Source: Thermosulfurimonas dismutans (GTDB taxonomy: Bacteria; Desulfobacterota; Thermodesulfobacteria; Thermodesulfobacteriales; Thermodesulfobacteriaceae). From it: a stretch of 32,000 nt of DNA. The stretch spans positions 60,001 through 92,000 of the forward strand of contig NZ_LWLG01000003.1 in NCBI RefSeq assembly GCF_001652585.1, given 5' to 3'. The notes under the pieces are model-generated. The model was not told where the DNA came from. It did no database searches and was given only the letters and a program-made list of their open reading frames with translations. The position numbers were made by a program, and so were the translations under genes. Shown here piece by piece: positions 1 through 30,067 of the stretch; position 1 is the first letter of the stretch; the number at the start of each line of letters is the position of its first letter.

Positions 1-387
1 ATAGAGGGTCCTCCTAGGATACATCGCACCGGGGTGTATTCGCACAGAGATCACCACGGGCTTGCGAAGGGTTTTTCCTACCATAATGTTGATAAAGTTG
101 GACAGTTCCAGGAAAGAGAGGAGAAGATCAGGGGCATTTCTTCGGGTTAGATTCAAATATCTAAAAAAAAGCAACGGCAGGATAGCGAGTTTTATCCAAT
201 AGGGAGTGTATAAGGAAAGTCTCGAGAGAGGACGATACGCTACTCCTCCACTGATATCATAAAAACAGTCCTTCTCCAGTCCATAAAAAAGAATACGGTG
301 TCTTTTGGCTAGCTCTCCCACCAGCGTTGCCGCCACCCTCTCCGCCCCTCCGGTAGTGAGAGAATTGATGAGGAATTGAAAAGTCAT
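1..387 (-). CDS. Glycosyltransferase family 4 (GT-B fold), N-terminal 129 codons; gene runs off the left edge
   Basis: Absent from the ORF track because it is truncated. Manual translation of the minus strand from ATG at 387 gives MTFQFLINSLTTGGAERVAATLVGELAKRHRILFYGLEKD... INSLxxGGAERV is the characteristic GT4 N-terminus. The frame stays open to nt 1. ATGA overlap with the stop of the upstream FkbM gene (384-387). Confidence 0.75.
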   Translation of the reverse strand, partial: MTFQFLINSLTTGGAERVAATLVGELAKRHRILFYGLEKDCFYDISGGVAYRPLSRLSLYTPYWIKLAILPLLFFRYLNLTRRNAPDLLLSFLELSNFINIMVGKTLRKPVVISVRIHPGAMYPRRTLY

Positions 388-1364
388 GGTTTAAGATAAT
401 ACATGTGAAAAGAAAAAAGACGATTGGATTGTTCAAAAAAAGTAGCTAAGGAGTCTATATCTTTAATTTCTTCTAATTGTTTGGCAAAAGGATTTAGAGT
501 TTTGAAGAGGTTGACTTTATTTTTAAAATACAAAGAAAATAAGATAGGATAGTCATAGATAACTTTTATTAACTTTCCTCCAAATTCTTTGAAAGTATTC
601 AAGAGCTTTAAAGTGTTCTTCTTTCCAATAATATGTGGATGCACCTCTAATACCAATCCGTAATTTTTTTGTTTGCAGAAAAAATCTTTAAAATGGCAAA
701 ACAGTTCATATTCATAACCTTCAACATCCATTCTTACTAAAAAGCTCTTAGAATTTAAAATGGTTTTATAATGATTTATTAAAGTCTCTAAACTAATAGT
801 CTGAACTTTTTCTAAGTAAAAATTTTTGAAAAAAGGTAAGGTCTTTAAAGAACTCCAATTACCTTGACTAGGGATCTTTATTTCAACCCATTCATCGGAA
901 CGCAAAGAAACAGCTTTTTTAATTAAAAAAGTTTTGCTTATTATATTTTCTTTAGCATTATTAAAAAAGAGATTCTCTTTAAGTAATTCAAAATTTCTAT
1001 GAACAGGCTCGACTGCAACAATATTACTTAGTGAATTCTCGAGTTCCAAGAGACAATAAAATCCTATATTAGCTCCAATATCAAAAATTACATCAAATTT
1101 ATGATTTTCCAAGAATTTCCTAAAAAATAACACATTATGTTCTTCTCTTATTCTAGCCAATAATAACTCATTTGTTATTCCTTCATCATTTAGATCTAAT
1201 ATCATAGAGAATTTATTAAAATATTTAGGTCTTAGAACAATAAACCTGACTCCTTTCTTTTTTAGAGTTCTTTTGAGTAAGCCAATTTTTAAAAAACACA
1301 AAACTTTTAAATAAGTATCTAAAATTTTTATACCAATTGTATAGAGATTAGAAAATATTAACAT
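384..1364 (-). CDS. FkbM-family SAM-dependent methyltransferase
   Basis: 326-aa ORF. It has the FDIGANIGFY SAM-binding motif, then AVEPVHRNFELLKEN, and later VRMDVEGYEYELF plus LEVHPH, which is the typical Methyltransf_21/FkbM layout. Very AT-rich gene (e.g. 661-720 is 14/60 GC). Confidence 0.85.
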   Translation of the reverse strand: MLIFSNLYTIGIKILDTYLKVLCFLKIGLLKRTLKKKGVRFIVLRPKYFNKFSMILDLNDEGITNELLLARIREEHNVLFFRKFLENHKFDVIFDIGANIGFYCLLELENSLSNIVAVEPVHRNFELLKENLFFNNAKENIISKTFLIKKAVSLRSDEWVEIKIPSQGNWSSLKTLPFFKNFYLEKVQTISLETLINHYKTILNSKSFLVRMDVEGYEYELFCHFKDFFCKQKNYGLVLEVHPHIIGKKNTLKLLNTFKEFGGKLIKVIYDYPILFSLYFKNKVNLFKTLNPFAKQLEEIKDIDSLATFFEQSNRLFSFHMYYLKP

Positions 1365-3270
1365 ATGTTTTGCCTGTATGCTCTATATAATTAAAATACC
1401 AATCTAAGAATAAAATAGTTCGGATTAAATAAACACGATAAAGAACAAATTTTTTGCTAAATAACGTATGATAATTTAAAAATTTGTATAATGTAAATGA
1501 CAGTCCTTCCAAAATACCCAAAGCCTGAGCAAGAAAGCTTTTTAGCCACTTCTCTCTCAAAATCCATTCTTCAATAGGAGGAATGAATCCCTGTTTACTC
1601 CTTTGAACGATGATTTCCGGCACAATATCCTTGATAATCTCCCGCATGAGCTTTTTGGTCTTGAAGAGATCCACCTTCCAGCAGGTAGGGATGCGCTGAC
1701 TGAATTCGACAAAGCGGTAGTCCAGAAAAGGGCTGCGCACCTCAAGAGCGTTAGCCATGGAGGCCCGATCAACCTTGGTCAAGAAATAGTCCGGAAGGGT
1801 GTTGTATAGGAGATCAAAAATGCGCAAGGCCTCGGCCAGAGAACCTCCGGCTTTTGGGAGGCAAAAACGAAGTTTTTCGGTGGTCCACTCCCGGTAAATC
1901 GGAGGACGATAGGCATCCTCAGGAAGAGAATCAGCAAAAAATCTCTCGGGCGGACTCAACGAAAGCCGAAAAGCTTCCTTCAGAAGATACAGATTAGACG
2001 AAGGATTTAAATTTTTACGAGCCGGAATTTTAGCCCCCAATTTCCGTAACCATCGAGGAAGTTTGTAAAGGATCTCCATGCGATAACCGTTTAAGTGGTC
2101 CCAGTATCCTCCAAATATTTCGTCTCCCCCGTCACCACTCAAAACTACCGTCACATGTCTTCGGGCCATCTCCGAGACTTTGTAGGTAGGAAAACCCGAA
2201 TAATCCCCAAAGGGTTCATCGTAAACCCGAGAGTAGATTTCTAATAGTTTTTCGAAATCTGGCTCTTTAAAATAATAGTGGTGGTGGCGGGTCCCAAAGG
2301 CTTCAACCCCTTCTCGTATGTAAGGGGTTTCGTCGTATTTTCCTTCAAATCCTATGGAGAAGGTATGAAGTTTGGATAGATCGGTAAACCTCCGCATCAT
2401 GCTTACAACCGAAGAGCTATCCAGCCCGCCACTCAAGAAGGCCCCCACCGGAACATCGCTTCGCATCCTTATCCTGACCGCATCCTGAATCAAAGCTTTT
2501 CCCTCTTCAATCAAGGCCTTCTTATCATAAAGAGGATCGTAGTCTGGAAGTTCCCAGTAATAGCTCTTCCAGAGCCTCTTAGTGGCCAAATCCAGAAAGA
2601 GATTCTGGCGAGCCTCAAGCTTTTGAATCCCTCGATAAATACTCCAGGGAGCCGGAATGAAACCCAGACTGAAGTATAGCTCCAGGGCTTCGGAATCCAG
2701 GTTTTCCAGACTGTTCAAAGGCTTTACCGCCAGGATGCCCTTAAGCTCGGAGGAGAAGATGAATTCCTTCCCGTTCCAAAAATAGTAGAATGGTTTGACC
2801 CCCAGACGGTCTCTCGAGCAAAAAAGCCTGCCTTTCCGCCGATCCAGGATGCAAAAGCTCCACATTCCATTGAAGCGCTCCACACACCGAGGTCCAAACC
2901 GAGCATAAGTTTTAAGAATAACCTCAGTATCAGTGCCAGTTTCAGTAAGGAGCCCTAGTTCCTCTTTAAGTTCCAAGTAATTGTAAACTTCCCCGTTGTA
3001 AACAATGACAAAATCGGCCCGATGGAGGTCTTGTTCCTCCCAAATAACACGGTCATCCTCCACGCTGTAACCCATGGGCTGGTGGCCCCTCACGGAAAGA
3101 TCTAGGATGGCTAGTCTCACATGGCCCAGACCTACCGAGAAAGAATTCGAATTCCATAGAAACATCCCTTCGTCATCCGGTCCCCGATGTCTTATAACTC
3201 TATTCATGTACTTAATTTCTTCTGTCTCAATTCGTTCCTCAAATCTCACGATGCCATTGATGCCACACAT
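1348..3270 (-). CDS. asnB: Asparagine synthase (glutamine-hydrolysing) family amidotransferase, glycan-locus type
   Basis: 640 aa. N-terminal MCGI with the Cys2 nucleophile of Ntn class-II glutamine amidotransferases. SGGLDSS PP-loop ATP pyrophosphatase motif. TAATG coupling to the upstream gene at 3268-3272. Confidence 0.9.
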   Translation of the reverse strand: MCGINGIVRFEERIETEEIKYMNRVIRHRGPDDEGMFLWNSNSFSVGLGHVRLAILDLSVRGHQPMGYSVEDDRVIWEEQDLHRADFVIVYNGEVYNYLELKEELGLLTETGTDTEVILKTYARFGPRCVERFNGMWSFCILDRRKGRLFCSRDRLGVKPFYYFWNGKEFIFSSELKGILAVKPLNSLENLDSEALELYFSLGFIPAPWSIYRGIQKLEARQNLFLDLATKRLWKSYYWELPDYDPLYDKKALIEEGKALIQDAVRIRMRSDVPVGAFLSGGLDSSSVVSMMRRFTDLSKLHTFSIGFEGKYDETPYIREGVEAFGTRHHHYYFKEPDFEKLLEIYSRVYDEPFGDYSGFPTYKVSEMARRHVTVVLSGDGGDEIFGGYWDHLNGYRMEILYKLPRWLRKLGAKIPARKNLNPSSNLYLLKEAFRLSLSPPERFFADSLPEDAYRPPIYREWTTEKLRFCLPKAGGSLAEALRIFDLLYNTLPDYFLTKVDRASMANALEVRSPFLDYRFVEFSQRIPTCWKVDLFKTKKLMREIIKDIVPEIIVQRSKQGFIPPIEEWILREKWLKSFLAQALGILEGLSFTLYKFLNYHTLFSKKFVLYRVYLIRTILFLDWYFNYIEHTGKTYVNIF

Positions 3271-3611
3271 TAGTAATCTTCAACTTTTTCTTTTTTCTTT
3301 AAAATGCTCAGTTCCTGAATTAAACGTCTGATTTTTTTTTCTTTTTTGGTAAGTTCTATGTCCTGAGTTAAGCTTTTCACAAAGAGTAAAAGGATAGCCA
3401 TAGTTACGGGTAAAATAGGGTAATACTCTACTCCCAGGCGCGAAGCTAGCCATATATTTAGTTGGGGGAAGATTCCTAATACTAAGATTATTACAGCCAT
3501 GCTAAGCCAAAAGAGGCTATAAGATAGATAAATTAGGTTTTTTCTAACCAAAAAAAATATGACCAAAGAAGTGCCGATGGCTAAGGTTATTATTAAAAGG
3601 TTAACCGTCAT
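3270..3611 (-). CDS. Small 3-TM membrane protein, DUF2304-like, with Lys/Glu-rich C-terminal tail
   Basis: 113 aa. Three hydrophobic segments (about 4-22, 30-48, 62-80), then KKEKKIRRLIQELSILKKKEKVEDY. Size, topology and position directly after a short GT2 fit my recollection of DUF2304. ATGA overlap with the GT2 stop (3608-3611). Confidence 0.65.
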   Translation of the reverse strand: MTVNLLIITLAIGTSLVIFFLVRKNLIYLSYSLFWLSMAVIILVLGIFPQLNIWLASRLGVEYYPILPVTMAILLLFVKSLTQDIELTKKEKKIRRLIQELSILKKKEKVEDY

Positions 3612-4282
3612 ATTATCCTCCTTTTGGATACAGAGAGAATGAGAGAAAGGGCAAGATAATGAGCGATTTTGAAAGGAGAAGAGAAAAGTTTAGAAGTTCC
3701 TCCTCTACGGTTACAGATTCTTACCGGCACTTCGAGCATCTTAAGACCGTAATGGTTAAGAAGCATCAGAGAGGCAAGATCAGCATTGTCTAGGATGACC
3801 AGATCTTCTTTGATTAAGAGGGAAACAGCCCTTTGGGAATAAGCCCTGAAACCCGAAGTGAGATCCTTTACTTTTACTCCCGTGAGAATCCGAAAAATCT
3901 TCCAAGCTAGCTTTTTGGCTATTCCTCCCCTTTCAAGACAGGCACCTATGACTACCTCGGCCTTTTTCTCTTTTAAGGGAGGCAGTAACTTGGAAACTGC
4001 CTCGGGAGGATGCTGGCCGTCGGCATCCATAGTTACGAAATACTCAAAACCTTTTCGATAACCGTAAAGAAATCCGGTTTGAAGGGCCCCCCAGTATCCA
4101 AGTTTAAGGGGTAAATCCAAAACCGTAGCTCCAGCTTTTAGAGCCTCTTTCGCAGTTCCATCGGTACTTCTGTCATTAATTACTACAATTTCCACATCTT
4201 TTAAAATTTGCTTTATTCCAAGAATGACTTCTTTGATTGTCGTTTCTTCGTTAAAAGCTGGAATAATTATTATGGTGTCCAT
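3608..4282 (-). CDS. GT2 glycosyltransferase, DPM1/GtrB-like polyprenyl-phosphate hexosyltransferase
   Basis: 224 aa. IIIPAFNEETTI start, INDRSTDGT, DADGQH (DxD) motif. Short soluble-type GT-A domain. Confidence 0.85.
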   Translation of the reverse strand: MDTIIIIPAFNEETTIKEVILGIKQILKDVEIVVINDRSTDGTAKEALKAGATVLDLPLKLGYWGALQTGFLYGYRKGFEYFVTMDADGQHPPEAVSKLLPPLKEKKAEVVIGACLERGGIAKKLAWKIFRILTGVKVKDLTSGFRAYSQRAVSLLIKEDLVILDNADLASLMLLNHYGLKMLEVPVRICNRRGGTSKLFSSPFKIAHYLALSLILSVSKRRII

Positions 4283-6351
4283 TTAACTTTGTAAACTACC
4301 ATAAAGGGAAAATCGTCCAGTACGAGTTCGAAAAATTTAGGGTCGTAGTTTTTAAGGATGTACATCTGGTTGAAATTACTCCTGAAGGAGCGTTCGTCCG
4401 CGAGATAGAAAGTCTGACCATAGCGCGAATTTACCACCTCAAGGATTAAACCTCTTGAATCGAAAGAAGTTTTCTGAAGAACTTTGTCCTTCCCGGAAAT
4501 TACTAGAATCTTAGAAAGATTAAACCAACGCGAACCCAACCTTACCGTTCCTTTTTTCAGGTCTAATACGCTGTTTTTACAAAAGAGAAGTCCAGTCTTG
4601 GAAGCTCTTCGACAAGGATTAAGATCATAGACAAAACCGAAGTGACCTTTGCGAGATCCGAAATTCCAAGTGCCGAAATAACCGATCCAGCCGTATTTGA
4701 GCGGGAGGTCTTGGGTGAAGACCCAGTAAACGGGATGGTTCAGGCTTTGATAGAATTTTCCCTGTTTGATGTTCTCCGTGAGTTCTTTAGCTGAAAGTTT
4801 ATCTTCTTTAAGTCGTTTTTTGATACCGGTTAAGCCCTCACGTGCTAGATAAGCAATAATGTGATAAGCCTCTTCCGGGGAAGAGGAAGCAAAACTCAAG
4901 GCTACATAGTAAGTTTTAGGAGAGGTTTGAGAGCCCCCGTCAATAAACACTCCTCGCCTGGAAAAATAACTAAAAGCATATCCATAATCCCACCAAGTCC
5001 ATATCCAGGCCTCGGGAGGCGTTATCTCACCAAGTTTCTTCATATCCCGGGCTACAAAAGCATTTACTTTAGGTAAGGCTACATAGGCCCGGCTGTTCTT
5101 CTGAGCCCAGAAGATAAGGACGCCCAGAATTACGGTTATCAAAAGAATAGCCAGGTTTTTTAAAGAATCTGCGACTTTAAGGTTCAGGATCCGTGAACTT
5201 TTTTCGATCAGGAAGTGAATCAAAAAACCAAGGCCCATCCCTATAAAAGGGGCGAGATACATGGCAAACCGGTTTCCGGAACGGAATACCAAAAGTCCAA
5301 TCAAAAAATAAGGCAAAAGGAAAAATAGGTATTTTCTTTCACGCACAAAAAAGGATGACATCCCTAACAGCCCTATTATAAAGAGAATCCTGTTATGAAG
5401 AGTAAGTGCAGCCACTTGATTTATGCTTTTAGATTGTTGAAGCTCTGAAATAGATTGCATAATATTGGGAAAGTCCCCGAAAAATCCTTCTTGAGCGGGA
5501 GAAACAATGTTTACCAGTAGATTTTTCAAATAATTGAACATGCTAAGGGGAGACTTCCATAGGTACCACATATTAGGTACAAGTAGAATGATCAAGGCTA
5601 CTATGTCCTTTTTTTCTAATCGGCCTTTTTTTTCGAAAAGCAGAACCGCAATAAAAGTGCACACCATGACAAACATAAGATGGGATACGGGATACCAGAA
5701 GAAGAAAATAAGAAGCAAAATTGAAGCTATGGTTGCCCAGAGAAGCGGCCTTCGGCCGCGGAAGTACATGGCCAGAGCCCAGGCGATGGCGAAAGGGAAA
5801 AAGAGGTTGAGGGAGTCGGTGTCGAAGCGGGCGATGCTGGTGCGGATCACATAGATCAGGGCCGTAACCCCGCAAAGCCCGCCCAGAAGCCCGGCCGCAG
5901 TGTAGCCCAGGCTCTCAAGGTAGAGAAACAGGGGGATCACGAAAAGCACCGCCGTTATGGGAGTGTAGTAGAGGGCCAGCTTCTCAAGAGGTACCCCGAA
6001 CCAGTCCGAGAGCTTGGCCGCGGAAAAGCTCATGAGGGGCACCGGGAAGGGATAGGTGATGTTGTCCGTGAGGTAATTGTCGGGCACGAAGCGGTAGGGG
6101 TCGCGTTTTCCCGCCCGATAACGGCCCTCCTGCCAGTCGCGGGCAAGCCGCGCGAAGTAAAAGGCGTCGTAGGAGGTGAAAATGGGGCGATTTTCCTCAA
6201 GATACCAGATATTTTTCCTCTTTTCCCAGACCCGTAGATCGTCGAAACGCAGGGCAAGCCCCGCGCCCATAACCAGGAGAACCAGGAGGAGTTTGAGGGC
6301 GACGACGACCCTCTTGGAATTACCCGAACTTGTAGGCCACGCCGTAACCAC
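4270..6351 (-). CDS. pglB: STT3/PglB-type oligosaccharyltransferase (GT-C fold)
   Basis: 693 aa, polytopic N-terminal half plus soluble C-terminal domain. WWDYG verified in the DNA (minus 4995-4981 = TGG TGG GAT TAT GGA). YDAFYFARLARD (D62), FDTD (D177/D179), SISEL (E303), NRF (R361). GTG start at 6351 overlaps the fixX 3' end by 32 nt. The next in-frame ATG (residue 28) would cut TM1, so the GTG is preferred, but the start is uncertain. Confidence 0.85.
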   Translation of the reverse strand: MVTAWPTSSGNSKRVVVALKLLLVLLVMGAGLALRFDDLRVWEKRKNIWYLEENRPIFTSYDAFYFARLARDWQEGRYRAGKRDPYRFVPDNYLTDNITYPFPVPLMSFSAAKLSDWFGVPLEKLALYYTPITAVLFVIPLFLYLESLGYTAAGLLGGLCGVTALIYVIRTSIARFDTDSLNLFFPFAIAWALAMYFRGRRPLLWATIASILLLIFFFWYPVSHLMFVMVCTFIAVLLFEKKGRLEKKDIVALIILLVPNMWYLWKSPLSMFNYLKNLLVNIVSPAQEGFFGDFPNIMQSISELQQSKSINQVAALTLHNRILFIIGLLGMSSFFVRERKYLFFLLPYFLIGLLVFRSGNRFAMYLAPFIGMGLGFLIHFLIEKSSRILNLKVADSLKNLAILLITVILGVLIFWAQKNSRAYVALPKVNAFVARDMKKLGEITPPEAWIWTWWDYGYAFSYFSRRGVFIDGGSQTSPKTYYVALSFASSSPEEAYHIIAYLAREGLTGIKKRLKEDKLSAKELTENIKQGKFYQSLNHPVYWVFTQDLPLKYGWIGYFGTWNFGSRKGHFGFVYDLNPCRRASKTGLLFCKNSVLDLKKGTVRLGSRWFNLSKILVISGKDKVLQKTSFDSRGLILEVVNSRYGQTFYLADERSFRSNFNQMYILKNYDPKFFELVLDDFPFMVVYKVKWTP

Positions 6352-6616
6352 CCCGGGGGTAGTCCCACTCGATGTTTAAATAAGGACAGGCCACCCTACA
6401 AGAACCACACTCCACACAGGCCTGATAACCCACGGTGATCTCTCCCTGCCGGTCAAGCCGATAAACCCCTGCCGGACAGAAGGAGAGACAGGGTTTCTCT
6501 AGACAACTCTTACAGATTTTGGGATTTTTGATTTTTAAGTGGACGTATTCTTCATCCACATAGTACTTGAGGGTAAAGATCCTGTCGTCAATGTTTACTT
6601 TGGGCAACGGTTTCAT
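6320..6616 (-). CDS. fixX: FixX-type ferredoxin-like protein
   Basis: 98 aa. Cys clusters CKSCLEKPCLSFCPAGVY and CVECGSCRVACP. C-terminal WDYPRGGYGVAYKFG typical of FixX. Confidence 0.85.
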   Translation of the reverse strand: MKPLPKVNIDDRIFTLKYYVDEEYVHLKIKNPKICKSCLEKPCLSFCPAGVYRLDRQGEITVGYQACVECGSCRVACPYLNIEWDYPRGGYGVAYKFG

Positions 6617-6617
6617 T

Positions 6618-7955
6618 TTACCATCCCTTAAAGAACCTGAAGGTTTTTACAAAGTCCCGGAGGAGACCGGTGAGGCCACGCCTCTTTCTAAACAACCCAA
6701 AGATTTCCTGGAAGACCTCCTCCTTGGCCCGTCCCTGGGCGGAAAGATAGAGATGCAGCACCCGATTGATGATTTCCGGATAATCCGCAAATAGACTCCG
6801 GTTCTCTCGTAGGAACTTCTTGAGCCTGCGGAAATACTTTAGATCCCGGTAGATATAGCTTTCCCTGAAGGCCTCCTCATAGAGTTTGAGCGTCTCGTGG
6901 CCAAAGTCTCCTTTCTCATGGGCGAAGACCGCGGCCTTCCCAGCCATGATACCGGAGTAGATGGCCAGATTGGTACCCTCCCTGAAGAGCGGGTTCACCA
7001 GGCCAGCGGCGTCTCCTACTACCATGACCCCTTCGCCGCAAAGCCTCGGAAGACCCTCAAGTCCCCATTCTGGAATGAGATGGGCCCCGTACTCCAGGGT
7101 TTCTCCCCCTGAAAGTAGCCTAGCCATAACAGGATGTTTTTTAAGATTTTCCAAAAGCTCATAGGGCTTTAAGCCCTTTTCGGCAAAGTCCGAAAGAAAA
7201 AGCCCCACGCCCAAGGACACGGAAGTGGTGTTGGTGTAAAGGAATCCGCTTCCCGGAAAGCCCAGAGTGGCCTCCCCTAGGAGTTCCACCGCGAGGCCTT
7301 CATCCTCGGAAAGTCCGAAGCGTTTTTCTACCTCGCCCTTGGGAAGCTGGATAACCTCTTTTACTGAAAGCGCCACCTCCTCCGGGGTGAAATCCCGCGG
7401 AATGAGGCCGGCCTTCTGGGTAAGGAGACGATTTACCCCCTCAGAGATAATGGTCACCGGAGCTCGCACCTCGGCCAGCTCCGAACTCTCCCAGTCCCGT
7501 GGTCTATCAACTAATACTCCCGAGACTTTGCCGTTTGCACAGATGAGATCTAGAACCTTTACCTTGGGTATAACCAGTACGCCAGCCTCTTCGGCCTTTT
7601 GGGCCAGCCAGGGATCAAACCGGGCCCTGAAGGCCGTGTAAGCCCGGGGCGGTTTTTCATAAAGGCCCTTTTCCGTGTGAGTGATCTTCACCACCCCGTC
7701 TTCGGAAAGGAGCCACCAACCCTCCTCCGTTACCGGACGTTCAAAGGGGAGTCTTTTTTCCGAAAAGAGGTCCGGTGCGAGACTTAATACGGATTCCGTG
7801 TAGACCACACCCCCGAAGAGATTTTTGGCCCCGGCAAAACGTCCTCTCTCAAGAAGGATGACGGAAAGACCATGCCGAGCGCAGGTCATGGCCGCGGAAA
7901 GACCCGCTGGCCCTCCTCCTACCACTACTACATCGTAGCGGAAGCTATTGCTCAT
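6618..7955 (-). CDS. fixC: FixC-type FAD-dependent oxidoreductase (ETF-quinone oxidoreductase-like)
   Basis: 445 aa. N-terminal YDVVVVGGGPAGLSAA dinucleotide-binding motif. Sits between etfA and fixX. Confidence 0.85.
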   Translation of the reverse strand: MSNSFRYDVVVVGGGPAGLSAAMTCARHGLSVILLERGRFAGAKNLFGGVVYTESVLSLAPDLFSEKRLPFERPVTEEGWWLLSEDGVVKITHTEKGLYEKPPRAYTAFRARFDPWLAQKAEEAGVLVIPKVKVLDLICANGKVSGVLVDRPRDWESSELAEVRAPVTIISEGVNRLLTQKAGLIPRDFTPEEVALSVKEVIQLPKGEVEKRFGLSEDEGLAVELLGEATLGFPGSGFLYTNTTSVSLGVGLFLSDFAEKGLKPYELLENLKKHPVMARLLSGGETLEYGAHLIPEWGLEGLPRLCGEGVMVVGDAAGLVNPLFREGTNLAIYSGIMAGKAAVFAHEKGDFGHETLKLYEEAFRESYIYRDLKYFRRLKKFLRENRSLFADYPEIINRVLHLYLSAQGRAKEEVFQEIFGLFRKRRGLTGLLRDFVKTFRFFKGW

Positions 7956-8943
7956 AACTTTTTTCCTTCTTAATGGCCTCGATAAGTTCCGGTAGGACTT
8001 CGTAAAGATCGCCTACGATACCGAGATCGGCAATCCTAAAAATGGGGGCCTCAGGATCGGTGTTCACCGCGATGATGAGATCCGAGTTTTGCATACCCAC
8101 CCGGTGCTGAATAGCCCCGGAGATGCCACAAGCGATATAGACTCTGGGCCTTACGGTCTTTCCTGTTTGGCCCACCTGGTACTCGTAGTCGATCCAGCCG
8201 GCGTCTACTACCGCACGGCTGGCCCCTACTTCACCGTCGAGAAGCTCTGCAAGTTCGCGAAGGAGCTTGAAGCCCTCCGGACCTCCAAGTCCTCGGCCGC
8301 CGGAGACCACCACGTCTGCATACTCCAAATTGACGGTTTTTTCCTTAGGAATAAACCCTACTCGTTTTACTTTAACCTCGTTCTCTGAAAGACCGAGGTC
8401 TTCGCGTACGATCTCCCCCTGACGGGTTTCGTCTTTTTCAGGGAGTGGGAAGGTACGTGGGCGGACGGTTGACATTTGGGGGCGATGATCAGGACAGAGG
8501 ATGGAAGCCATGATGTTTCCGCCAAAAGCCGGTCGGGTCATGATGAGGTTTTTGGTCTCCGGATCAATCTCAAGCCCGGTGACATCGGCAGTAAGTCCGG
8601 TTTCAAGCGCAGTGGCGATGGAGCCCGCGAGATCCCGTCCCATAGTGGTGGCGCCCAAAAGAAGAATCTCTGGACGATACTTTTCGCAGAGTTTAATGAC
8701 CCCGTGGGCGTAAGTTTCGTTTCGGTAATATTCAAGGACGGGATCGTCTATCATATAAACCCTTTCGGCCCCGTAAGTGATGGCCTCCTTGGCGATGAGT
8801 TCCACCCCCTGGCCCAGAACCAAGGCCTCTACCTCTCCCGAAAGGGCTTCAGCTAGCTCTCGGGCCTTTCCCAGAAGTTCCCAGGAGACCGGATGTGCTT
8901 TACCTTCCTCCTGTTCCACAAAGACCCAGACTTTGGGTTTCAC
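7945..8943 (-). CDS. etfA: Electron transfer flavoprotein alpha subunit (EtfA/FixB)
   Basis: 332 aa. C-terminal FAD-binding region YIACGISGAIQHRVGMQNSDLIIAVNTDPEAPIF. GTG start in a GTGA overlap with the etfB stop (8940-8943). Confidence 0.9.
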   Translation of the reverse strand: MKPKVWVFVEQEEGKAHPVSWELLGKARELAEALSGEVEALVLGQGVELIAKEAITYGAERVYMIDDPVLEYYRNETYAHGVIKLCEKYRPEILLLGATTMGRDLAGSIATALETGLTADVTGLEIDPETKNLIMTRPAFGGNIMASILCPDHRPQMSTVRPRTFPLPEKDETRQGEIVREDLGLSENEVKVKRVGFIPKEKTVNLEYADVVVSGGRGLGGPEGFKLLRELAELLDGEVGASRAVVDAGWIDYEYQVGQTGKTVRPRVYIACGISGAIQHRVGMQNSDLIIAVNTDPEAPIFRIADLGIVGDLYEVLPELIEAIKKEKSYEQ

Positions 8944-9752
8944 AGTACCCCCTTCTCTTTCAGGGCTGTAATGATTTTTTCCACCACCGTCGAAACTCCG
9001 GCTTCGGAAACAAAGATCCTTTCTCCAGGACTCTTGAGTTCCGGCGTGAAGACACGGTGGACCCGGGTGGGGGAGCCCTTCAGTCCTAATTTGGCCCTCT
9101 CAAGAGGTACCGGATTTTCCGCGGAAAAGACCTCTGGCTTGCTTTTGGCGGCTCGGATGAGTTCCGAAAGGGGCGAGAAAGGCGGCTCTCCCACTTCCCG
9201 GTCGCAGGTTATAAGCACCGGAAGCGGGGCCTTTAAAATCTCTATGCCCCTTTCAGTTTTCCGATGAACAACAATTTCTCGGGTCTCGGTATCTAGCTTT
9301 TCCACCTTTACTACGTAGGTGATAAGGGGTACCCCTAATCTACGGGCCACTCCAGGACCCACCTGGGCGGTATCCCCATCAATGGCTTGTTTGCCGAAAA
9401 GAAGCAGATCAAAAGGCGCCTCACCAGCCAAATACTTTATAGTTTCGGCCAAGGTGTAGCTGGTGGCCAGGGTGTCAGCCCCGGCGAACTTGCGGTCCGA
9501 AAGGAGGATGATCCGGTCAGCTCCATACTCCACGGCCTCTTTCAGGGCGGCTTCAGCTTGGGGAGGCCCCATGGTAATAACGGTAATCTTCGCACCGTAA
9601 CGTCTCTTTAATTTCGAGGCTAGGGCTAAGGCGCTGGCGTCATAGGGATTTATGATGGAGGGTACGCCTTCCCGCACTAAGGTGCCGGTCTCGGGATTAA
9701 TACGGATATTAGTGGTATCTGGGACCTGTTTTATGGAAACCAGAATGTTCAT
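8940..9752 (-). CDS. etfB: Electron transfer flavoprotein beta subunit (EtfB/FixA)
   Basis: 270 aa. MNILVSIKQVPDT start and GKQAIDGDTAQVGP segment. ATGA overlap with the RND pump stop (9749-9752). Confidence 0.9.
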   Translation of the reverse strand: MNILVSIKQVPDTTNIRINPETGTLVREGVPSIINPYDASALALASKLKRRYGAKITVITMGPPQAEAALKEAVEYGADRIILLSDRKFAGADTLATSYTLAETIKYLAGEAPFDLLLFGKQAIDGDTAQVGPGVARRLGVPLITYVVKVEKLDTETREIVVHRKTERGIEILKAPLPVLITCDREVGEPPFSPLSELIRAAKSKPEVFSAENPVPLERAKLGLKGSPTRVHRVFTPELKSPGERIFVSEAGVSTVVEKIITALKEKGVL

Positions 9753-12700
9753 TTCCTTGGCTCCTCTGATTTTATAATGGCAGAAAGATCCTCAAAAATC
9801 AAGTAGCAGGTTGGCACTAGCACCAGGGTGATCACGGTGGCGAAAAGGACGCCGAAAGCCAGACTTATGGCCATAGGAATTAAGAATTTGGCCTGAATAC
9901 TTTTCTCAAAGATCATGGGGGTCAAACCGAAGAAGGTGGTAAGGGTGGTTAGCATGACCGGGCGGAAGCGCCTGAGACAGGCGTTGACCACGGCCTCCCG
10001 AAGCGGCAGGCCCTCACGCCGTTGGCGATTTATAAGGTCAACCAGGATGATGGCGTCGTTTACCACCACCCCGGAAAGCCCCACGATACCAAAAAGACTC
10101 AGGATGGAAAGTGAGTGCCCCAGGAGGAGGTGCCCCAGAAAGGCCCCTACGATGCCGAAGGGGATGGCCAGCATGATGATCAGGGGCTGAGAGAAGGAGC
10201 GCAGGGGGATGGCGATCAGGGTGTAAACGAGGATGAGGGCCAGAAAGAACTCTTTTTTGAGCTCCTGCATGGTGCGGGTTTCCTCCCGTCCCTCACCTTC
10301 AAAGGAATATAGGAGGCCCGGGTAGCGTTCGGCGAGCTCGGGGAGGAGTTCGCTCTTTAGAATGCGGCGGGCTTCGCTTCCGGTAAGCTCGTTTTCGTCC
10401 ACTTCGGCTCGCACATAGATTACCCGCTTACGGTTTAGGCGCTCAAGGGACACATACCCAGGGGCGAAAAAAGGGTCTGCGACCTCAAGGAAGGGGATTT
10501 CCCGCCCATCAGAAAGCCTTACACGCAGTCTTTTAAGGGTTTCGAGGGTCTCTCTTTCCTTCTCAGGAAGTCTTACCAAAACCGAGATTTCGTCCTCGCC
10601 CCGCTGAAATCGTAGGGCCTCGGCCCCGTAAAAGCTCGAGCGTACCGTACGGGCGATATCGGCCAGCGTGACCCCGAGGCTCTTGGCCCCAGGTTTTAAA
10701 CGGAAACGCAACTCCTCTTTGCCCTCCACATGGCTGTCCTCCACGTCATAGACACCCTTTATCTTCGAAAGTTTGCTCTTCAACTCCTCGATCGCGGCCA
10801 AAAGCACCTCTTCTTCAGGATGCGAAAGAGCTACTTCTATGGGTTTCCCGAAAGAAAAGAGTTCTCCGGAGAAGGTAATCGAGTCGGCCTCCGGGATCGT
10901 CCCCACCGCCTTTCTCCAGGCCGAGACCAACGCCTTTACGCTTACGCCGGAGCGCTTTTCGGCTTCCACCAGCCGGATCTCGATTCCGGCGATATGACTC
11001 CCCATTTCCGGTGGCCCCCCGTGAGGCCCTGAAATGGTGGCCCCTACGGAAATTAGACTGTACTCGAGAAGTTTTTTCTCGTACTTTCGTTCGGCCTCGG
11101 CCACGACCTTGAGGCCTGCGGCCTCAATTTTCTTGGCCACGGAGAGGGTTTCCTCAAAAGGCGTTCCGGCAGGCATCCTCAAGGTGCATTTGAGTCGATT
11201 ACCTTCCACCCTTGGGAAAAAGCTGAAACGGAGTTTGCCTCCGATCCAAAGGGAAAAGACCATCAAAAGTAAAGCCGTGAGGGCCGAGAGCGTAACCCAG
11301 CGAACGGAAAGGGCCTTAAAAAGAAAGGGCCGATACAGTTTCTCGACGAACCTTTCAAGGTTGTTTGAGAGGGCCGGTTTCTTTTTGGGGATTTTGGCCC
11401 CCATGAGATGGGTCGGGAGCACTAAAAGGGCTTCAAGCAGAGAACCCGCAAGCACCAGAATGACTACCACCGGGATCACTCGCATGAATCTTCCCATGGA
11501 GCCCACGCCGTAAAGGAGGGGCCAGAAGGCTGCGATGGTGGTAAGCACGGAGAAGATGACCGGATTCGCCACTTCTAGGGTGCCTCCCACCGCGGCCGAA
11601 AGCCGAGTTGCCCCGGCTTCCCGGTGTTTGAAGATGTTTTCTCCCACCACAATAGCGTCGTCCACCACGATACCCAGGACCAAGATGAAGGCAAAAAGGG
11701 AGATCATGTTGATAGAGACCCCGAAATGGGGCATGAGCCAGAGACCGAAGGCAAAGGAAATAGGAATCCCGAGGACTACCCAGAAGGCGAGATTGAGGTG
11801 CAGAAAGAGAGATAAGAGCACGATAACGATGACCATCCCGAGGGCCATATTTTTTAGGAGGAGCTTTATTCGTGACCAAAGGATGTCCGTGCGATCCCTC
11901 ATGATCTCAAGCTTTAAGGGCGAGGGAAGGAGGGCCTGTATCTCCGGAAGATGGGTTTTAACCGTGCGCGCGATGTCAAGCACATTCTGTTCTCCGACCC
12001 GGAAAATCTCGATCACCGCCGCCGGTTTACCGTTGTAAAGGACGGCGTAGTCGAAACTGTCACGGAGTTCTTCACGGATCTCGGAAAGGTCTCGCAGATA
12101 GAGGGTTCCGCCCTTTTCACCGCCGAGGAGCCTTAAAGTCTCGTATTCCTCGCCGAAGTAGCGCTTGCCGCGGACCCTCACCAGGTATTCCTCGTGAGGG
12201 TTTTTTAGACGCCCGGCCGGAAGATCCAGGGATCCCCTCTGAACGAGTTCGGCGATGGCGGAAAGACTCAGGCCGTACTTCCGGAGTTTTTTTTCTGGAA
12301 TTTCGATGTGGATCTCCCGGGGGAAAAGCCCGAAATAATCCACCTCGGTTATGCCCGGAAGGGCAAGGAGGTAGTCCTTTATCCTTTCGGTCCAATATTT
12401 GAGAGTTTCTTTGTCTACTTCGCCGGAGAGGACGAGGTTGATGACTTCGTGCCGGATAATGACCTTTTTCACGATGGGTCTTTCGGCCTGGGCGGGAAGA
12501 GTGGTGATGCCGTCTACCTCGGTCTTCACCTCGTCGAGAAGCTCCCGGGCATCCCAGCCCTCAAGGACCTCCACCGTGATGCGGCCCTCGCCCTCCCGCG
12601 CCACAGAGAGGATACGGTCAATCCCGGAAAGAGAGGCAATCCTTTCTTCGATGGGTTTTATGACCGACTCTTCAATCTCCTGGGGGGAGGCCCCTCGGTA

Positions 12701-28078: not shown

Positions 28079-28082
28079 ATTT

Positions 28083-29246: not shown

Positions 29247-30067
29247 AATAATCCTATTCCTCCTACCCCTAAAATTAAGTATTTTAAAGGGAATAATATT
29301 AGGTGGGTTTTATAAAAGGGCAATAATCCGGAGAGAGATCTTTCTAGATAGTTTTTGAGAGCCAAAAGTATGCCCAAAGATAGCAGAGAAGAACTTATAC
29401 CTATAAAGAAACTCACTAATACTTTGGGCTTCGCTATATAGCCTGGTGTAGCCCCTAGAAGAGAAAGGATTTCTATTTCCTCCCGTTGTCTTTCTAGAAT
29501 TAAGGTTATAGTTATGCTCATCAGAAATATTAATGATACTATCATTAATCCTATTCCTAAAATAGTCAATAATTTTATCGATTTAGCAAAATTGTTTATT
29601 CTTCCCAGCCAACCCTCCTCATATCTAACCTTCAAAACCCCTTCTTCTTTTTCAATGAGTTTCAGGTAGGGTTTTGCCTTTTCGAAGTCCTTGAGTGGAT
29701 TTTTGAAAGTAATCTCTATAAAGGAGGGTATATTTTGCAGGTCTAGTTCCTCGAGGATTTCAGGAGTTCCCTTAAATATTTCTTGAAGTTTGGCCAATAC
29801 TTGCTCCGATTTGATTAGTTTTATGTTTTCTATTCCCGGTAAATTTTTTATCTTCTTTTGGATGCTAAGCTTTACTTTTTCTTCGAGATCAGGTTTTAAA
29901 TAGATAGTTACGGCCAAACTTTGGGCTGTTTTTTGAGAGAATAAATAAAGATTGAAATATATAAAAGCGAAGAAAAGTAGGAGTGTTACCGAAATATTGA
30001 TAACTAAAAATGAGACAAAATAAGAGCTTTTGTTATTTTTTATTTCCTGAAGAAATTTTTCAAACAT
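29201..30067 (-). CDS. ftsX: Cell-division ABC transporter permease-like protein FtsX
   Basis: 288 aa. TM1, a large periplasmic loop, then three C-terminal TMs. TAATG coupling to ftsE (30065-30069). Extremely AT-rich. Confidence 0.85.
   Translation of the reverse strand: MFEKFLQEIKNNKSSYFVSFLVINISVTLLLFFAFIYFNLYLFSQKTAQSLAVTIYLKPDLEEKVKLSIQKKIKNLPGIENIKLIKSEQVLAKLQEIFKGTPEILEELDLQNIPSFIEITFKNPLKDFEKAKPYLKLIEKEEGVLKVRYEEGWLGRINNFAKSIKLLTILGIGLMIVSLIFLMSITITLILERQREEIEILSLLGATPGYIAKPKVLVSFFIGISSSLLSLGILLALKNYLERSLSGLLPFYKTHLILFPLKYLILGVGGIGLFCALVSWLSVRRYFS

What the first reader, a model, noticed from the sequence alone, without database searches (positions are those of the whole stretch)
3270..6351. 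Gtr-like three-component layout: STT3/PglB-type GT-C enzyme, short GT2 and 113-aa 3-TM protein as one overlapped unit
pglB, the GT2 and the small membrane protein overlap by 13 and 4 nt. The GT2 (224 aa, DADGQH) is of the DPM1/GtrB kind that makes polyprenyl-monophosphate-hexose. The 113-aa protein has three TM helices plus a charged tail. It is DUF2304-like, a family with no assigned function that I recall as habitually adjacent to such GT2 genes. This follows the logic of GtrA (small membrane flippase), GtrB (GT2) and GtrX (GT-C) in O-antigen glucosylation, and of the Dol-P-sugar branch of archaeal N-glycosylation, but with an N-oligosaccharyltransferase in the GT-C slot. No pglC-like initiating phosphoglycosyltransferase, Wzx/PglK flippase or multi-GT ladder is visible in the 4 kb that follow; only AsnB, FkbM and the start of a GT4 are there. 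My hypothesis is one of two things. It could be a minimal N-glycosylation route using a monophosphate-linked or very short donor. It could instead be a periplasmic decoration step. In either case the DUF2304 protein would act as flippase or accessory subunit.
Basis: partly seen in the sequence, partly recalled or inferred. Interest (0 to 1): 0.7.

Follow-up and report, generated by a model that had tools for sequence, protein, structure and literature searches.

The report
PglB transferase with lipid-sugar synthase pair
A bacterial protein N-glycosylation enzyme (PglB type) sits in one tightly packed gene cassette with a two-protein enzyme that loads a single sugar onto the membrane lipid carrier; the same trio recurs in several heat-loving bacteria, which suggests a bacterial N-glycosylation route fed by a monophosphate-linked sugar, as in some archaea.

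Summary
On the minus strand of this Thermosulfurimonas dismutans window, a PglB-type STT3 enzyme (4270-6351), a 224-aa GT2 (3608-4282) and a 113-aa three-helix DUF2304 protein (3270-3611) overlap by 13 and 4 nt.

DUF2304 is not functionless. It is the GacJ/Rv3632 family, a membrane subunit that binds and stimulates a polyprenyl-phosphate HexNAc synthase (GacI, PpgS). This favours "accessory subunit", not "flippase".

The trio is not a chance neighbourhood:
- Six of the seven closest GT2 homologues I could place lie within 3.5 kb of an STT3 gene. None of 80 more distant ones does.
- Arrangements vary, and one partner STT3 is only 25% identical.
- STT3, GT2 and DUF2304 are the only families these loci share.
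- GC3 drops from 0.75 to 0.43 at codon ~210 of pglB and stays low through GT2 and DUF2304, so the distal two-thirds of pglB appears to have arrived with them.

However, most STT3 loci lack the pair, including the closest orthologues at the same fixX-pglB junction.

Best reading (about 0.45): the pair makes the monophosphate-linked sugar that this STT3 uses or that starts its donor. The main rival is side-branch decoration through another GT-C enzyme. I rate it a new variant of a known kind. All evidence is genomic.

The parts
4270..6351 (-). pglB: a PglB-type STT3 oligosaccharyltransferase (GT-C fold), 693 aa from a GTG start (NCBI aa). The key motifs are intact: D62 (SYDAFYF), D177-T-D179, S-I-S-E303, R361 (GNRFAMY), W453-WDYG-Y458 and an MI-type NQMYIL motif.
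5722..6351 (-). The 5' roughly 630 nt of pglB, with native composition (GC3 0.75). The protein here is 83-96% identical to Thermosulfurimonas orthologues over residues 71-210.
4270..5721 (-). The distal two-thirds of pglB, with island-like composition (GC3 0.43; orthologues stay at 0.60-0.73). It encodes EL5, R361, WWDYG and the periplasmic domain. I infer a recombination breakpoint near 5720.
3608..4282 (-). GT2 polyprenyl-phosphate glycosyltransferase of the GacI/PpgS/AglJ class. It is a catalytic domain plus one C-terminal helix (residues 203-222) with no transmembrane segment. Its start lies 13 nt inside pglB.
3270..3611 (-). DUF2304 (GacJ/Rv3632 family): a three-helix membrane protein with a Lys/Glu-rich tail, inferred to be cytoplasmic from the charge distribution. 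It shares an ATGA overlap with GT2 and has an AGGAGG Shine-Dalgarno sequence. Predicted membrane subunit of the GT2.
1348..3270 (-). AsnB-type glutamine amidotransferase. It is part of the low-GC island downstream. It is not part of the trio conserved in other lineages.
384..1364 (-). FkbM-family methyltransferase with extremely low GC (26%, GC3 0.22). It is an island gene, not part of the conserved trio.
1..387 (-). N-terminal 129 aa of a GT4-type glycosyltransferase that runs off the left edge of the window.
6320..6616 (-). fixX (an ETF-QO-type ferredoxin), the last gene of the conserved TetR-OEP-MFP-RND-ETF-FixCX block. The fixX-pglB junction is conserved in six related genomes besides this window.

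Best explanation
The three genes form one functional, co-inherited cassette. I grade the parts of this claim separately.

**Step 1. Well supported by homology and literature, about 0.85.**
The soluble GT2 and the three-helix DUF2304 protein form a GacI/GacJ- or PpgS/Rv3632-type complex on the cytoplasmic face of the membrane. This complex transfers one sugar from a nucleotide sugar to undecaprenyl phosphate, giving a monophosphate-linked lipid sugar. The sugar is possibly a HexNAc, but its identity is not established. DUF2304 supplies the membrane part that ArnC, GtrB and DPMS carry in the same polypeptide, and it improves binding of the lipid. It is not a flippase.

**Step 2. Inferred.**
The lipid sugar reaches the periplasmic leaflet, either as it is or after extension by glycosyltransferases encoded elsewhere. 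The flippase is unidentified.

**Step 3. Inferred, about 0.45.**
The adjacent PglB-type STT3 is the GT-C enzyme that consumes this lipid-linked donor and transfers it to Asn in sequons of periplasmic or surface proteins. That would be a bacterial counterpart of the euryarchaeal AglK/AglJ-AglB route, which uses monophosphate carriers. It would differ from the Campylobacter route, which uses diphosphate carriers.

**In T. dismutans.**
The cassette appears to have entered the resident fixX-pglB locus by recombination inside pglB. It brought the catalytic two-thirds of pglB together with GT2, DUF2304 and a low-GC glycan island.
For: **Identity of the parts**
- establish what each protein is.

**DUF2304 role from the literature**
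- Rv3632 assists PpgS (PMC9671496; PMC3485146).

**The GT2 lacks a membrane part**
- The GT2 model superposes over its whole length on ArnC, DPMS and GtrB, but covers only about half of those proteins (TMq 0.72-0.75 against TMt about 0.5).
- It has no hydrophobic segment of its own, whereas DUF2304 has three.

**Linkage to STT3**
- Seven distinct close GT2 homologues (52-60% identity) were looked up, and six lie within 3.5 kb of an STT3 gene.
- L165 and L171 have the same order and strand as the window, with gaps of 3 and 22 nt.
- L168/L169 have the GT2 overlapping STT3 by 19 nt.
- L166/L167 and L016 are divergent, and L162 has the genes 3.5 kb apart.
- None of 80 loci with GT2 relatives of 30-49% identity has an STT3 gene (Fisher p = 1.4e-8, or 7.5e-7 using only loci with at least 3.5 kb of flank).

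**No other shared partner**
- STT3, GT2 and DUF2304 are the only families shared among the linked loci. There is no second GT-C enzyme, no phosphoglycosyltransferase and no shared flippase.
- Flanking genes are unrelated housekeeping genes.

**Deep divergence of the partner**
- In L171 the STT3 is only 25% identical to the window's. Its GT2 is 57% identical and its DUF2304 56% identical, in the same gene order.

**Co-acquisition signal**
- GC3 inside pglB steps from 0.75 to 0.43 at about codon 210 and continues at 0.37 and 0.36 in GT2 and DUF2304. Five orthologues are flat at 0.60-0.73.

**Compatibility with an OST role**
- The STT3 keeps all catalytic and sequon-binding motifs. These include the Tyr after WWDYG, which in C. 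lari PglB contacts the C2 acetamido group of the reducing-end sugar; that attribution is from my own knowledge of PDB entry 5OGL.

**Precedent**
Against: - To my knowledge, every bacterial PglB characterised so far uses an undecaprenyl-diphosphate donor.
- The closest orthologues lack the pair nearby. These are 53-67% identical and sit at the same fixX-pglB junction in Thermosulfurimonas sp. F29, T. marina and four MAGs. No F29 or T. marina protein appears among the named entries of the 120 best GT2 hits. The pair is therefore not generally required by this STT3 lineage.
- Only 1 of 79 STT3 loci from species representatives carries the pair.
- No alignment column separates linked from unlinked STT3 proteins, so there is no sequence signature of a change in donor.
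- GacI makes beta-GlcNAc-P-Und. An inverting STT3 would need an alpha-linked donor to give the usual beta-Asn linkage. AglK does make the alpha anomer (my recollection of Larkin et al. 2013), but the anomer made by this GT2 is unknown.
- No flippase is found in the cassette.
- Everything here is genomic context. The sugar, the lipid intermediate and the acceptor are all untested.
- The region left of the window, the rest of the genome and the locus of the second pglB paralogue (P0011) could not be inspected.
Confidence: 0.45

Rival explanations
1. This is a decoration module. The STT3 is an ordinary diphosphate-donor oligosaccharyltransferase. GT2 and DUF2304 make an Und-P-sugar that a different periplasmic GT-C enzyme, encoded elsewhere, adds as a side branch. 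The target would be the N-glycan or its lipid-linked precursor. This follows the pattern of GtrA/B/C, GacI/J/K/L, PpgS/Rv3632/Rv3779 and Haloferax AglD/AglS.
For: - Every characterised GT2-DUF2304 pair serves decoration: GacIJ to GacL, and PpgS/Rv3632 to Rv3779.
- In Mycobacterium and Corynebacterium the consuming GT-C is not adjacent to the pair, so adjacency is not required.
- The distribution is patchy and island-like, typical of variable surface decoration: 1 of 79 STT3 loci, absent from the closest orthologues, low GC in T. dismutans.
- There is no sequence signature of a donor change in linked STT3 proteins.
- A beta-linked GacI-type product does not fit an inverting OST that makes beta-Asn.
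- L170 shows the pair with a Wzx-like flippase and a sulfotransferase, and no STT3 within 10 kb upstream.
Against: - No second GT-C gene is shared by, or visible in, any linked locus, including the free-standing trios L171, L016 and L165.
- It does not explain why the pair is tied to STT3, often translationally coupled to it, instead of to its supposed consumer.
- It does not explain why the catalytic two-thirds of pglB shares the composition of the pair.
- It does not explain why the same pair clade sits beside STT3 proteins that are only 25% identical.
Confidence: 0.3
2. The STT3 consumes the Und-P-sugar but is not a protein N-glycosyltransferase here. It would transfer the single sugar to a non-protein acceptor such as a polysaccharide, a lipid or the cell wall, acting like GtrC or GacL.
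For: - The three-component layout matches Gtr-type systems, whose GT-C enzymes modify glycans.
- Und-P-monosaccharide donors are typical of such enzymes.
- In T. dismutans the cassette is followed by polysaccharide-type genes: AsnB, FkbM and GT4.
Against: - The peptide-binding WWDYG and MI motifs and all catalytic residues of PglB are conserved in every linked STT3.
- The model matches PglB far better than other GT-C families: TM 0.76-0.79 against 0.35-0.49 for ArnT, AftA and DPY19.
Confidence: 0.1
3. The adjacency has no functional meaning. The site downstream of pglB is a hot spot for variable gene islands. The GT2-DUF2304 pair would belong to the neighbouring exopolysaccharide or LPS island and have nothing to do with pglB.
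For: - The sequence downstream of pglB differs in every Thermosulfurimonas-like genome: toxin-antitoxin genes plus a Wzx/DegT cluster in F29; SLT/ZnuA/SecDF in T. marina; housekeeping genes in L001 and L004.
- The island in the window has mixed, foreign composition.
- The run of overlapping genes extends well beyond the trio.
Against: - Recurrence in 6 of 7 independent lineages, with different arrangements and different flanking genes, against 0 of 80 controls.
- Free-standing trios exist with no other glycan genes.
- The compositional break lies inside pglB, not at its end.
Confidence: 0.07

Closest known systems
GacI/GacJ(/GacK/GacL) of Streptococcus pyogenes, and PpgS/Rv3632(/Rv3779) of Mycobacterium tuberculosis and Corynebacterium
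   Same: A short GT2 with no membrane helices is followed directly by a roughly 113-aa, three-helix DUF2304 protein. GacJ is itself 113 aa. The product is a polyprenyl-monophosphate HexNAc that a GT-C enzyme uses outside the membrane. The small protein is a stimulatory subunit of the GT2.
   Different: The linked GT-C here is a PglB-type oligosaccharyltransferase with intact sequon-binding motifs, not a glycan-modifying GT-C such as GacL or Rv3779. No Wzx-type flippase like GacK is present. The NCBIfam PpgS model matches only residues 2-132 at 90 bits against a cut-off of 370, so this is not an equivalog and the sugar is unknown.
Euryarchaeal N-glycosylation on dolichyl monophosphate (AglK-AglC-AglB in Methanococcus voltae; AglJ...AglB in Haloferax volcanii)
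   Same: A DPM1-like GT2 charges a polyprenyl monophosphate with the first sugar, and an STT3-family enzyme transfers the monophosphate-linked glycan to Asn (PMC8993221). AglJ is the second-best NCBIfam hit of the GT2 and aligns over residues 3-199.
   Different: The organism is a bacterium and the STT3 is PglB-type: MI motif, TM 0.76-0.79 to PglB against 0.55-0.59 to AglB. I know of no DUF2304 partner in the archaeal systems. The AglJ score (68 bits) is far below the family cut-off of 325. The donor chemistry here has not been tested.
Campylobacter pgl system (PglB with PglC, PglA/J/H/I, PglK)
   Same: The oligosaccharyltransferase is homologous over nearly its full length and keeps the catalytic residues, the WWDYG motif and the MI motif. 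PglB homologues in Deltaproteobacteria and Aquificae are already known, and some are active in E. coli (PMC4894442).
   Different: No PglC, PglK or glycosyltransferase ladder lies next to it. In this thermophile clade pglB is normally an orphan among housekeeping genes. The NCBIfam PglB equivalog model scores 103 bits against a cut-off of 1300. The only recurrent glycosylation neighbours are the GT2 and DUF2304.
GtrA/GtrB/GtrC O-antigen glucosylation (Shigella and Salmonella phages)
   Same: The three-component logic is the same: a polyprenyl-phosphate GT2 plus a small membrane protein plus a GT-C enzyme, encoded as one compact and mobile unit. GtrB is among the best sequence and fold matches of the GT2.
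   Different: The small protein is DUF2304, not a GtrA-like protein, and it acts on the synthase, not as the proposed flippase. The GT2 lacks the two transmembrane helices of GtrB. The GT-C enzyme is an STT3.

Membership tests
STT3/PglB/AglB oligosaccharyltransferases (GT66, GT-C fold) | Matches to the Pfam STT3 and STT3-PglB_core models above their gathering thresholds | tested here: met
   44.4 bits (cut-off 24.5) and 45.7 bits (cut-off 23).
STT3/PglB/AglB oligosaccharyltransferases (GT66, GT-C fold) | A multi-pass membrane domain followed by a periplasmic domain, with the overall fold of PglB | tested here: met
   The model has pLDDT 90.8 and pTM 0.90. Foldseek finds C. lari PglB entries 6GXC, 5OGL and 3RCE at E 3.5e-28 to 6.3e-27 and TM 0.76-0.79. 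Nine strong hydrophobic segments lie in residues 15-414.
STT3/PglB/AglB oligosaccharyltransferases (GT66, GT-C fold) | Catalytic acidic residues (EL1 Asp, DxD, Glu of the EL5 TIXE-type motif), the conserved Arg, and the WWDYG sequon-binding motif | tested here: met
   D62, D177/D179, E303, R361 and W453-G457 are invariant or nearly invariant in 23 homologues. D177/D179, R361 and WWDYG align to their C. lari counterparts; D62 and E303 are assigned from motif similarity and my recollection of the Campylobacter PglB sequence, because that alignment starts at residue 121. All are conserved in every linked STT3.
Bacterial PglB subtype | An MI-type motif in the C-terminal domain instead of the DK motif, and closer to PglB than to AglB or eukaryotic STT3 | tested here: met
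   NQMYIL aligns to YIQMFLL of C. lari. TM is 0.76-0.79 to PglB against 0.55-0.60 to STT3 and AglB. It is not an NCBIfam equivalog (103 bits against 1300).
Bacterial PglB subtype | Transfers an undecaprenyl-diphosphate-linked glycan to Asn in a sequon | not testable with these tools
   This needs biochemistry. It is the very point in question.
Polyprenyl-phosphate glycosyltransferases (GT2; DPM1/GtrB/ArnC/PpgS/GacI class) | A GT-A catalytic domain with a DxD motif, whose closest relatives are polyprenyl-phosphate transferases | tested here: met
   Pfam GT2 at 83.5 bits; D86-A-D88. NCBIfam top hits are PpgS, AglJ and a Dol-P hexose transferase. PDB sequence hits are DPMS, ArnC and GtrB only. 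The top fold matches are ArnC, DPMS and GtrB; soluble glucosyl-3-phosphoglycerate synthases follow closely.
Polyprenyl-phosphate glycosyltransferases (GT2; DPM1/GtrB/ArnC/PpgS/GacI class) | Makes a polyprenyl-monophosphate sugar; identity and anomer of that sugar | not testable with these tools
   All NCBIfam scores are far below the equivalog cut-offs. HexNAc is a guess from the best hit.
DUF2304 / GacJ / Rv3632 | A Pfam PF10066 match, about 110-120 aa, three transmembrane helices, encoded directly after a short GT2 | tested here: met
   73.4 bits against a cut-off of 25.5. Three hydrophobic segments and a 4-nt overlap with GT2. The same pairing is seen in L016, L162, L165, L166, L170 and L171.
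DUF2304 / GacJ / Rv3632 | Forms a complex with the GT2 and stimulates it | not testable with these tools
   Known for GacJ and Rv3632. The structure tool takes single chains only.
Gtr three-component system (GtrA/GtrB/GtrC) | A GtrA-like small flippase (Pfam GtrA family) | tested here: not met
   The 113-aa protein hits DUF2304, not GtrA. No other free-standing small ORF exists in 1-7000.
Gtr three-component system (GtrA/GtrB/GtrC) | A GtrB with its own C-terminal transmembrane helices | tested here: not met
   The GT2 has no hydrophobic segment. The model covers only about half of GtrB and ArnC.
Campylobacter-type pgl locus | PglC-type initiating phosphoglycosyltransferase, PglK/Wzx flippase and a ladder of glycosyltransferases next to pglB | tested here: inconclusive
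   None lies in the 4.3 kb downstream or in the upstream block. The window ends inside a GT4 gene, and the contig could not be retrieved.
Euryarchaeal monophosphate N-glycosylation route (AglK/AglJ + AglB) | The GT2 product is the donor, or the first intermediate of the donor, used by the STT3 enzyme | not testable with these tools
   Only conserved linkage supports it.

The most novel reading that the evidence does not exclude
A self-contained, horizontally mobile three-gene N-glycosylation cassette exists in Bacteria. In it, a GacI/GacJ-type synthase makes an undecaprenyl-monophosphate sugar. A PglB-type oligosaccharyltransferase then uses that sugar directly as its donor, or after minimal extension. 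This would be euryarchaeal monophosphate chemistry, and possibly a single-sugar N-glycan, in a bacterial periplasm. It would need no phosphoglycosyltransferase.
Probability: 0.3. Interest if true: 0.8.

Novelty: new variant of a known kind. Interest (0 to 1): 0.62.

Why it matters
**Biology.** Bacterial N-glycosylation is understood almost wholly from the Campylobacter model, which uses a diphosphate-linked donor started by PglC. A PglB-type enzyme fed by a monophosphate-linked sugar would show that the split between the two donor strategies (P versus PP) does not follow the archaea/bacteria boundary. It would also give a natural system for asking what in an STT3 enzyme decides which donor phosphate it accepts.

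**Practical use.** A three-gene cassette from thermophiles that installs a defined small N-glycan would be attractive for glyco-engineering in E. coli.

**If the decoration reading is right instead.** The finding would still be the first case I could find of a GacI/GacJ-type module recruited to an N-glycosylation enzyme. It would extend the known role of DUF2304 beyond Gram-positive and mycobacterial cell walls.

**Literature status.** No paper in the searchable library links PglB or STT3 with DUF2304, GacJ or GacI in a natural system.

Tried and rejected
- **Sequence beyond the left edge.** Exact-protein look-ups failed for DUF2304, GT2, the NCBI version of PglB (P0001) and the second paralogue P0011. 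The genome-collection scan did not return the T. dismutans contig.
- **DUF2304 homologue search.** It returned only 4 proteins because of the word index. I could not obtain natural GT2-DUF2304 fusions for a structure-based test of the complex, and the structure tool does not accept multimers.
- **Residues that separate linked from unlinked STT3 proteins.** No clean discriminating column was found. The best is L329, present in 6 of 7 linked against 5 of 38 unlinked. There is thus no sequence evidence for a donor switch.
- **Neighbours of more distant GT2 relatives.** Among 31 multi-pass membrane proteins nearby, a few hit GT-C families (PMT_2 in 3, YfhO in 1, PMT in 1) and most hit nothing. This fits the general "pair plus GT-C" pattern only weakly, so I did not use it as evidence.
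- **Promoter and terminator scan of 1-10000.** Counts were no higher than in shuffled sequence. One 10/12 promoter-like site lies at 4295-4266, just ahead of the GT2 start, but it is not interpretable alone.
- **Mosaic test by protein identity alone.** It was ambiguous, because orthologue pairs show the same segment-by-segment pattern. The GC3 step made the case.
- **The 433-aa gene upstream of the pair in L170.** I checked it as a possible GT-C. It has no hydrophobic segments, so I rejected it.
- **DUF2304 as flippase.** Rejected as the leading idea. There is no GtrA or Wzx similarity, and published work shows a different role.

Full report
**1. What is in the window**

The window is from Thermosulfurimonas dismutans: the NCBI PglB of that species is 100% identical to the 693-aa ORF.

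From about coordinate 15400 down to the left edge, every gene is on the minus strand and tightly packed. The order is OEP, MFP and RND efflux genes, then ETF-beta, ETF-alpha, FixC and FixX (6320-6616). These are followed by the STT3 gene (4270-6351), GT2 (3608-4282), DUF2304 (3270-3611), AsnB (1348-3270), FkbM (384-1364) and the first 129 codons of a GT4 (1-387).

There are 13 nt between pglB and GT2. There are 4 nt (ATGA) between GT2 and DUF2304, with an AGGAGG 8 nt upstream. Overlaps or abutments continue on both sides, however: fixX/pglB, DUF2304/asnB, asnB/fkbM and fkbM/GT4. The trio is therefore not set apart by overlap alone.

**2. Identity of the three proteins**

*The 693-aa protein* is a PglB-type oligosaccharyltransferase.
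- Both Pfam STT3 models score above threshold.
- It aligns with C. lari PglB over residues 121-688.
- The model has pLDDT 90.8. Its best structural matches are the three PglB entries (TM 0.76-0.79), ahead of eukaryotic STT3 and archaeal AglB (0.55-0.60).
- The catalytic Asp and Glu residues, the conserved Arg, WWDYG, the following Tyr and an MI-type motif are all present. They are invariant or nearly so in 23 homologues.

*The 224-aa protein* is a GT2 of the class that glycosylates polyprenyl phosphates.
- Best NCBIfam hits are PpgS, AglJ and a haloarchaeal dolichyl-phosphate hexose transferase. All are far below equivalog cut-offs.
- The only PDB sequence matches are DPMS, ArnC and GtrB.
- The model (pLDDT 86) superposes over its whole length on ArnC, DPMS and GtrB, but covers only about half of those proteins.
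- It has no hydrophobic segment.

*The 113-aa protein* is a clear DUF2304 member. It has three hydrophobic segments and a Lys/Glu-rich tail, and no solved relative.

**3. DUF2304 is not functionless**

Rush et al. (bioRxiv 10.1101/180810) identify GacJ of Streptococcus pyogenes as a DUF2304 protein. GacJ is also 113 aa.
- It co-purifies with the GT2 GacI.
- It is sometimes fused to GacI homologues.

In M. tuberculosis, Rv3632 assists PpgS in making polyprenyl-P-GalNAc, which the GT-C enzyme Rv3779 then uses (PMC9671496; PMC3485146).

The GT2 here lacks the membrane part that ArnC, GtrB and DPMS carry in the same chain. The simplest reading is that DUF2304 supplies that part in trans.

**4. Is the link to STT3 real?**

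*Starting from STT3.* A scan of species-representative genomes returned 79 loci with STT3 relatives. Profile searches of their six-frame ORFs found the GT2-DUF2304 pair in only one, L016.
- The closest orthologues sit at exactly the same place, right after fixX, in six related genomes. What follows pglB differs each time.
- Thermosulfurimonas sp. F29 has toxin-antitoxin genes and then a Wzx/DegT cluster. T. marina has SLT, ZnuA and SecDF. L001 and L004 have housekeeping genes.
- Across 20 well-flanked loci of this family, the neighbours are mainly housekeeping genes (amino-acid kinase in 9). A PglC-type transferase appears in only 2.
- An orphan pglB is therefore the norm in this clade. The missing pglC in the window is not informative in itself.

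*Starting from the GT2.* The picture reverses. The 13 closest homologues (52-60% identity) form a small clade, and the metagenomic sources that could be identified are hydrothermal or thermophile samples. I could place seven of them on contigs, and six lie beside an STT3 gene:

| Locus | Arrangement |
|---|---|
| L165 | STT3, GT2, DUF2304 in the window's order; 3-nt gap |
| L171 | Same order; 22-nt gap; flanked by an acyl-CoA synthetase gene and ftsZ/ftsA |
| L168/L169 | GT2 overlaps STT3 by 19 nt |
| L166/L167 | Divergent |
| L016 | Divergent |
| L162 | 3.5 kb apart |
| L170 (exception) | Pair followed by a Wzx-like flippase and a sulfotransferase; no STT3 |

None of 80 metagenome loci carrying GT2 relatives of 30-49% identity has an STT3 gene. 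Fisher's exact p is 1.4e-8, or 7.5e-7 when only loci with enough flank are counted.

An all-against-all comparison of the linked loci finds only three shared families: STT3, GT2 and DUF2304.

The linked STT3 proteins fall in several branches of the tree. The STT3 in L171 is only 24-29% identical to the others, while its GT2 and DUF2304 are 51-61% identical.

**5. A breakpoint inside pglB**

Third-position GC in the window's pglB is 0.75 for the first 630 nt and 0.43 for the rest. Five orthologues are flat at 0.60-0.73.
- GT2 (0.37) and DUF2304 (0.36) continue the low level.
- fixX and fixC are at 0.60-0.61 (overall GC).

Protein identity to orthologues is 83-96% for residues 71-210 and 40-80% afterwards. 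That pattern is partly mirrored between orthologue pairs and is not decisive alone.

The composition step implies that the distal two-thirds of pglB entered together with GT2 and DUF2304. That part encodes EL5, the conserved Arg, WWDYG and the periplasmic domain. Entry would have been by recombination within the conserved 5' part of the resident gene. This is inference, but it ties the catalytic part of the STT3 physically to the pair.

**6. How it most likely works**

*Step 1 (strong).* GT2 and DUF2304 form a membrane-bound synthase that makes an undecaprenyl-monophosphate sugar.

*Steps 2 and 3 (inferred).* The lipid sugar, possibly extended by enzymes encoded elsewhere, is flipped and then used by the adjacent STT3 as donor for Asn glycosylation. 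All known consumers of such donors are GT-C enzymes, and the STT3 is the only GT-C that travels with the pair. The STT3 family can use monophosphate carriers, as in Euryarchaeota, where AglK or AglJ starts the glycan on Dol-P (PMC8993221).

*Against this:*
- Orthologous pglB genes lack the pair.
- There is no sequence signature of a donor change.
- No flippase is found.
- All studied bacterial PglBs use diphosphate donors.
- GacI makes the beta anomer, whereas an inverting OST would need alpha.

I put this reading at about 0.45. The other readings are:
- Decoration, with another GT-C as the consumer: 0.30.
- A non-protein acceptor: 0.10.
- Meaningless adjacency: 0.07.

**7. Comparison with known systems and novelty**

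The parts are all of known kinds. PglB homologues in Deltaproteobacteria and Aquificae have been catalogued and tested (PMC4894442), and the GT2-DUF2304 pairing is published. What I could not find in the searchable literature is any natural link between the two.

The system works like a Gtr or GacIJL three-component system with an N-oligosaccharyltransferase in the GT-C slot. It is not a member of the Gtr family: there is no GtrA, and the GT2 has no membrane helices. I rate it a new variant of a known kind. Interest is moderate to high because it yields a sharp, cheap experiment (three genes in E. coli) on an open question. It stops short of high because all the evidence is genomic context.

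**8. Limits**

- I could not see left of the window, the rest of the genome or the locus of the second pglB paralogue (P0011, 53% identical).
- The sugar, its anomer, the flippase and the acceptor are unknown.
- The seven GT2 look-ups are a small sample, although they are mutually divergent (47-66% identity).

Noticed in passing
window 4270-6351, step near 5720: Third-position GC in pglB falls from 0.75 (first 630 nt) to 0.43 (the rest), while five orthologues stay flat. This implies a recombination breakpoint inside the gene and a mosaic pglB.
   Followed up: yes
window 6320-6351; also L080, L081, L001, L004, L002, L003: The start of pglB overlaps the end of fixX, and this junction is conserved in six related genomes besides this window. 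An N-glycosylation enzyme thus looks like the last gene of an ETF/FixABCX electron-transfer operon. No reason for this pairing is apparent.
   Followed up: partly
protein P0011 (T. dismutans, a different contig): T. dismutans encodes a second PglB paralogue that is 53% identical to the one in the window. Its neighbourhood could not be retrieved.
   Followed up: partly
window 384-1364: The FkbM methyltransferase gene has 26% GC (GC3 0.22) in a genome region of about 53% GC. This is far lower than the rest of the island (asnB GC3 0.49), so the island is itself a mosaic of several origins.
   Followed up: no
L168 3951-7661 and 11172-12298: In this locus the GT2 next to STT3 has no DUF2304 of its own. 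It is followed by a weak GNAT-like 342-aa protein, an NAD-dependent sugar epimerase and a PEP-CTERM protein. A second, complete GT2-DUF2304 pair lies 6.5 kb further on. An epimerase homologue also precedes the trio in L165, which recalls the UDP-GlcNAc/GalNAc epimerase of the PpgS system.
   Followed up: partly
L170 10001-13500: This is the one close GT2-DUF2304 pair with no STT3 gene nearby. It is followed directly by a Wzx/MurJ-like flippase and a sulfotransferase, which suggests how the lipid sugar might be flipped in other genomes.
   Followed up: no
L162 6860-9980 and 11129-12214; L016 3-953; L163, L164; L080 6992-8056: Genes for archaeal-type ATPases (Pfam ATPase_2 with an MJ1010-like domain) recur around the GT2-DUF2304 pair, in three copies in L162. 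One is also inserted between the ETF-alpha and fixC genes in strain F29. They may mark mobile or defence elements.
   Followed up: no
window 28000-30100: A second low-GC stretch (33-38%) covers the EnvC-like M23 peptidase and FtsX-like genes, in contrast to 51-55% GC in the central part of the window (about 19-25 kb).
   Followed up: no
window 6270 versus 6351: The start of pglB is ambiguous. NCBI calls a 666-aa product, while orthologues are called at 691-694 aa with a start that overlaps fixX. That matches the GTG at 6351.
   Followed up: partly
window 4295-4266 (minus strand): A 10/12 sigma-70-like promoter match (TTTACA-18-AATAAT) lies inside the 3' end of pglB, overlapping the GT2 start codon at 4282. 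The total number of such sites in the region is no higher than in shuffled sequence.
   Followed up: no
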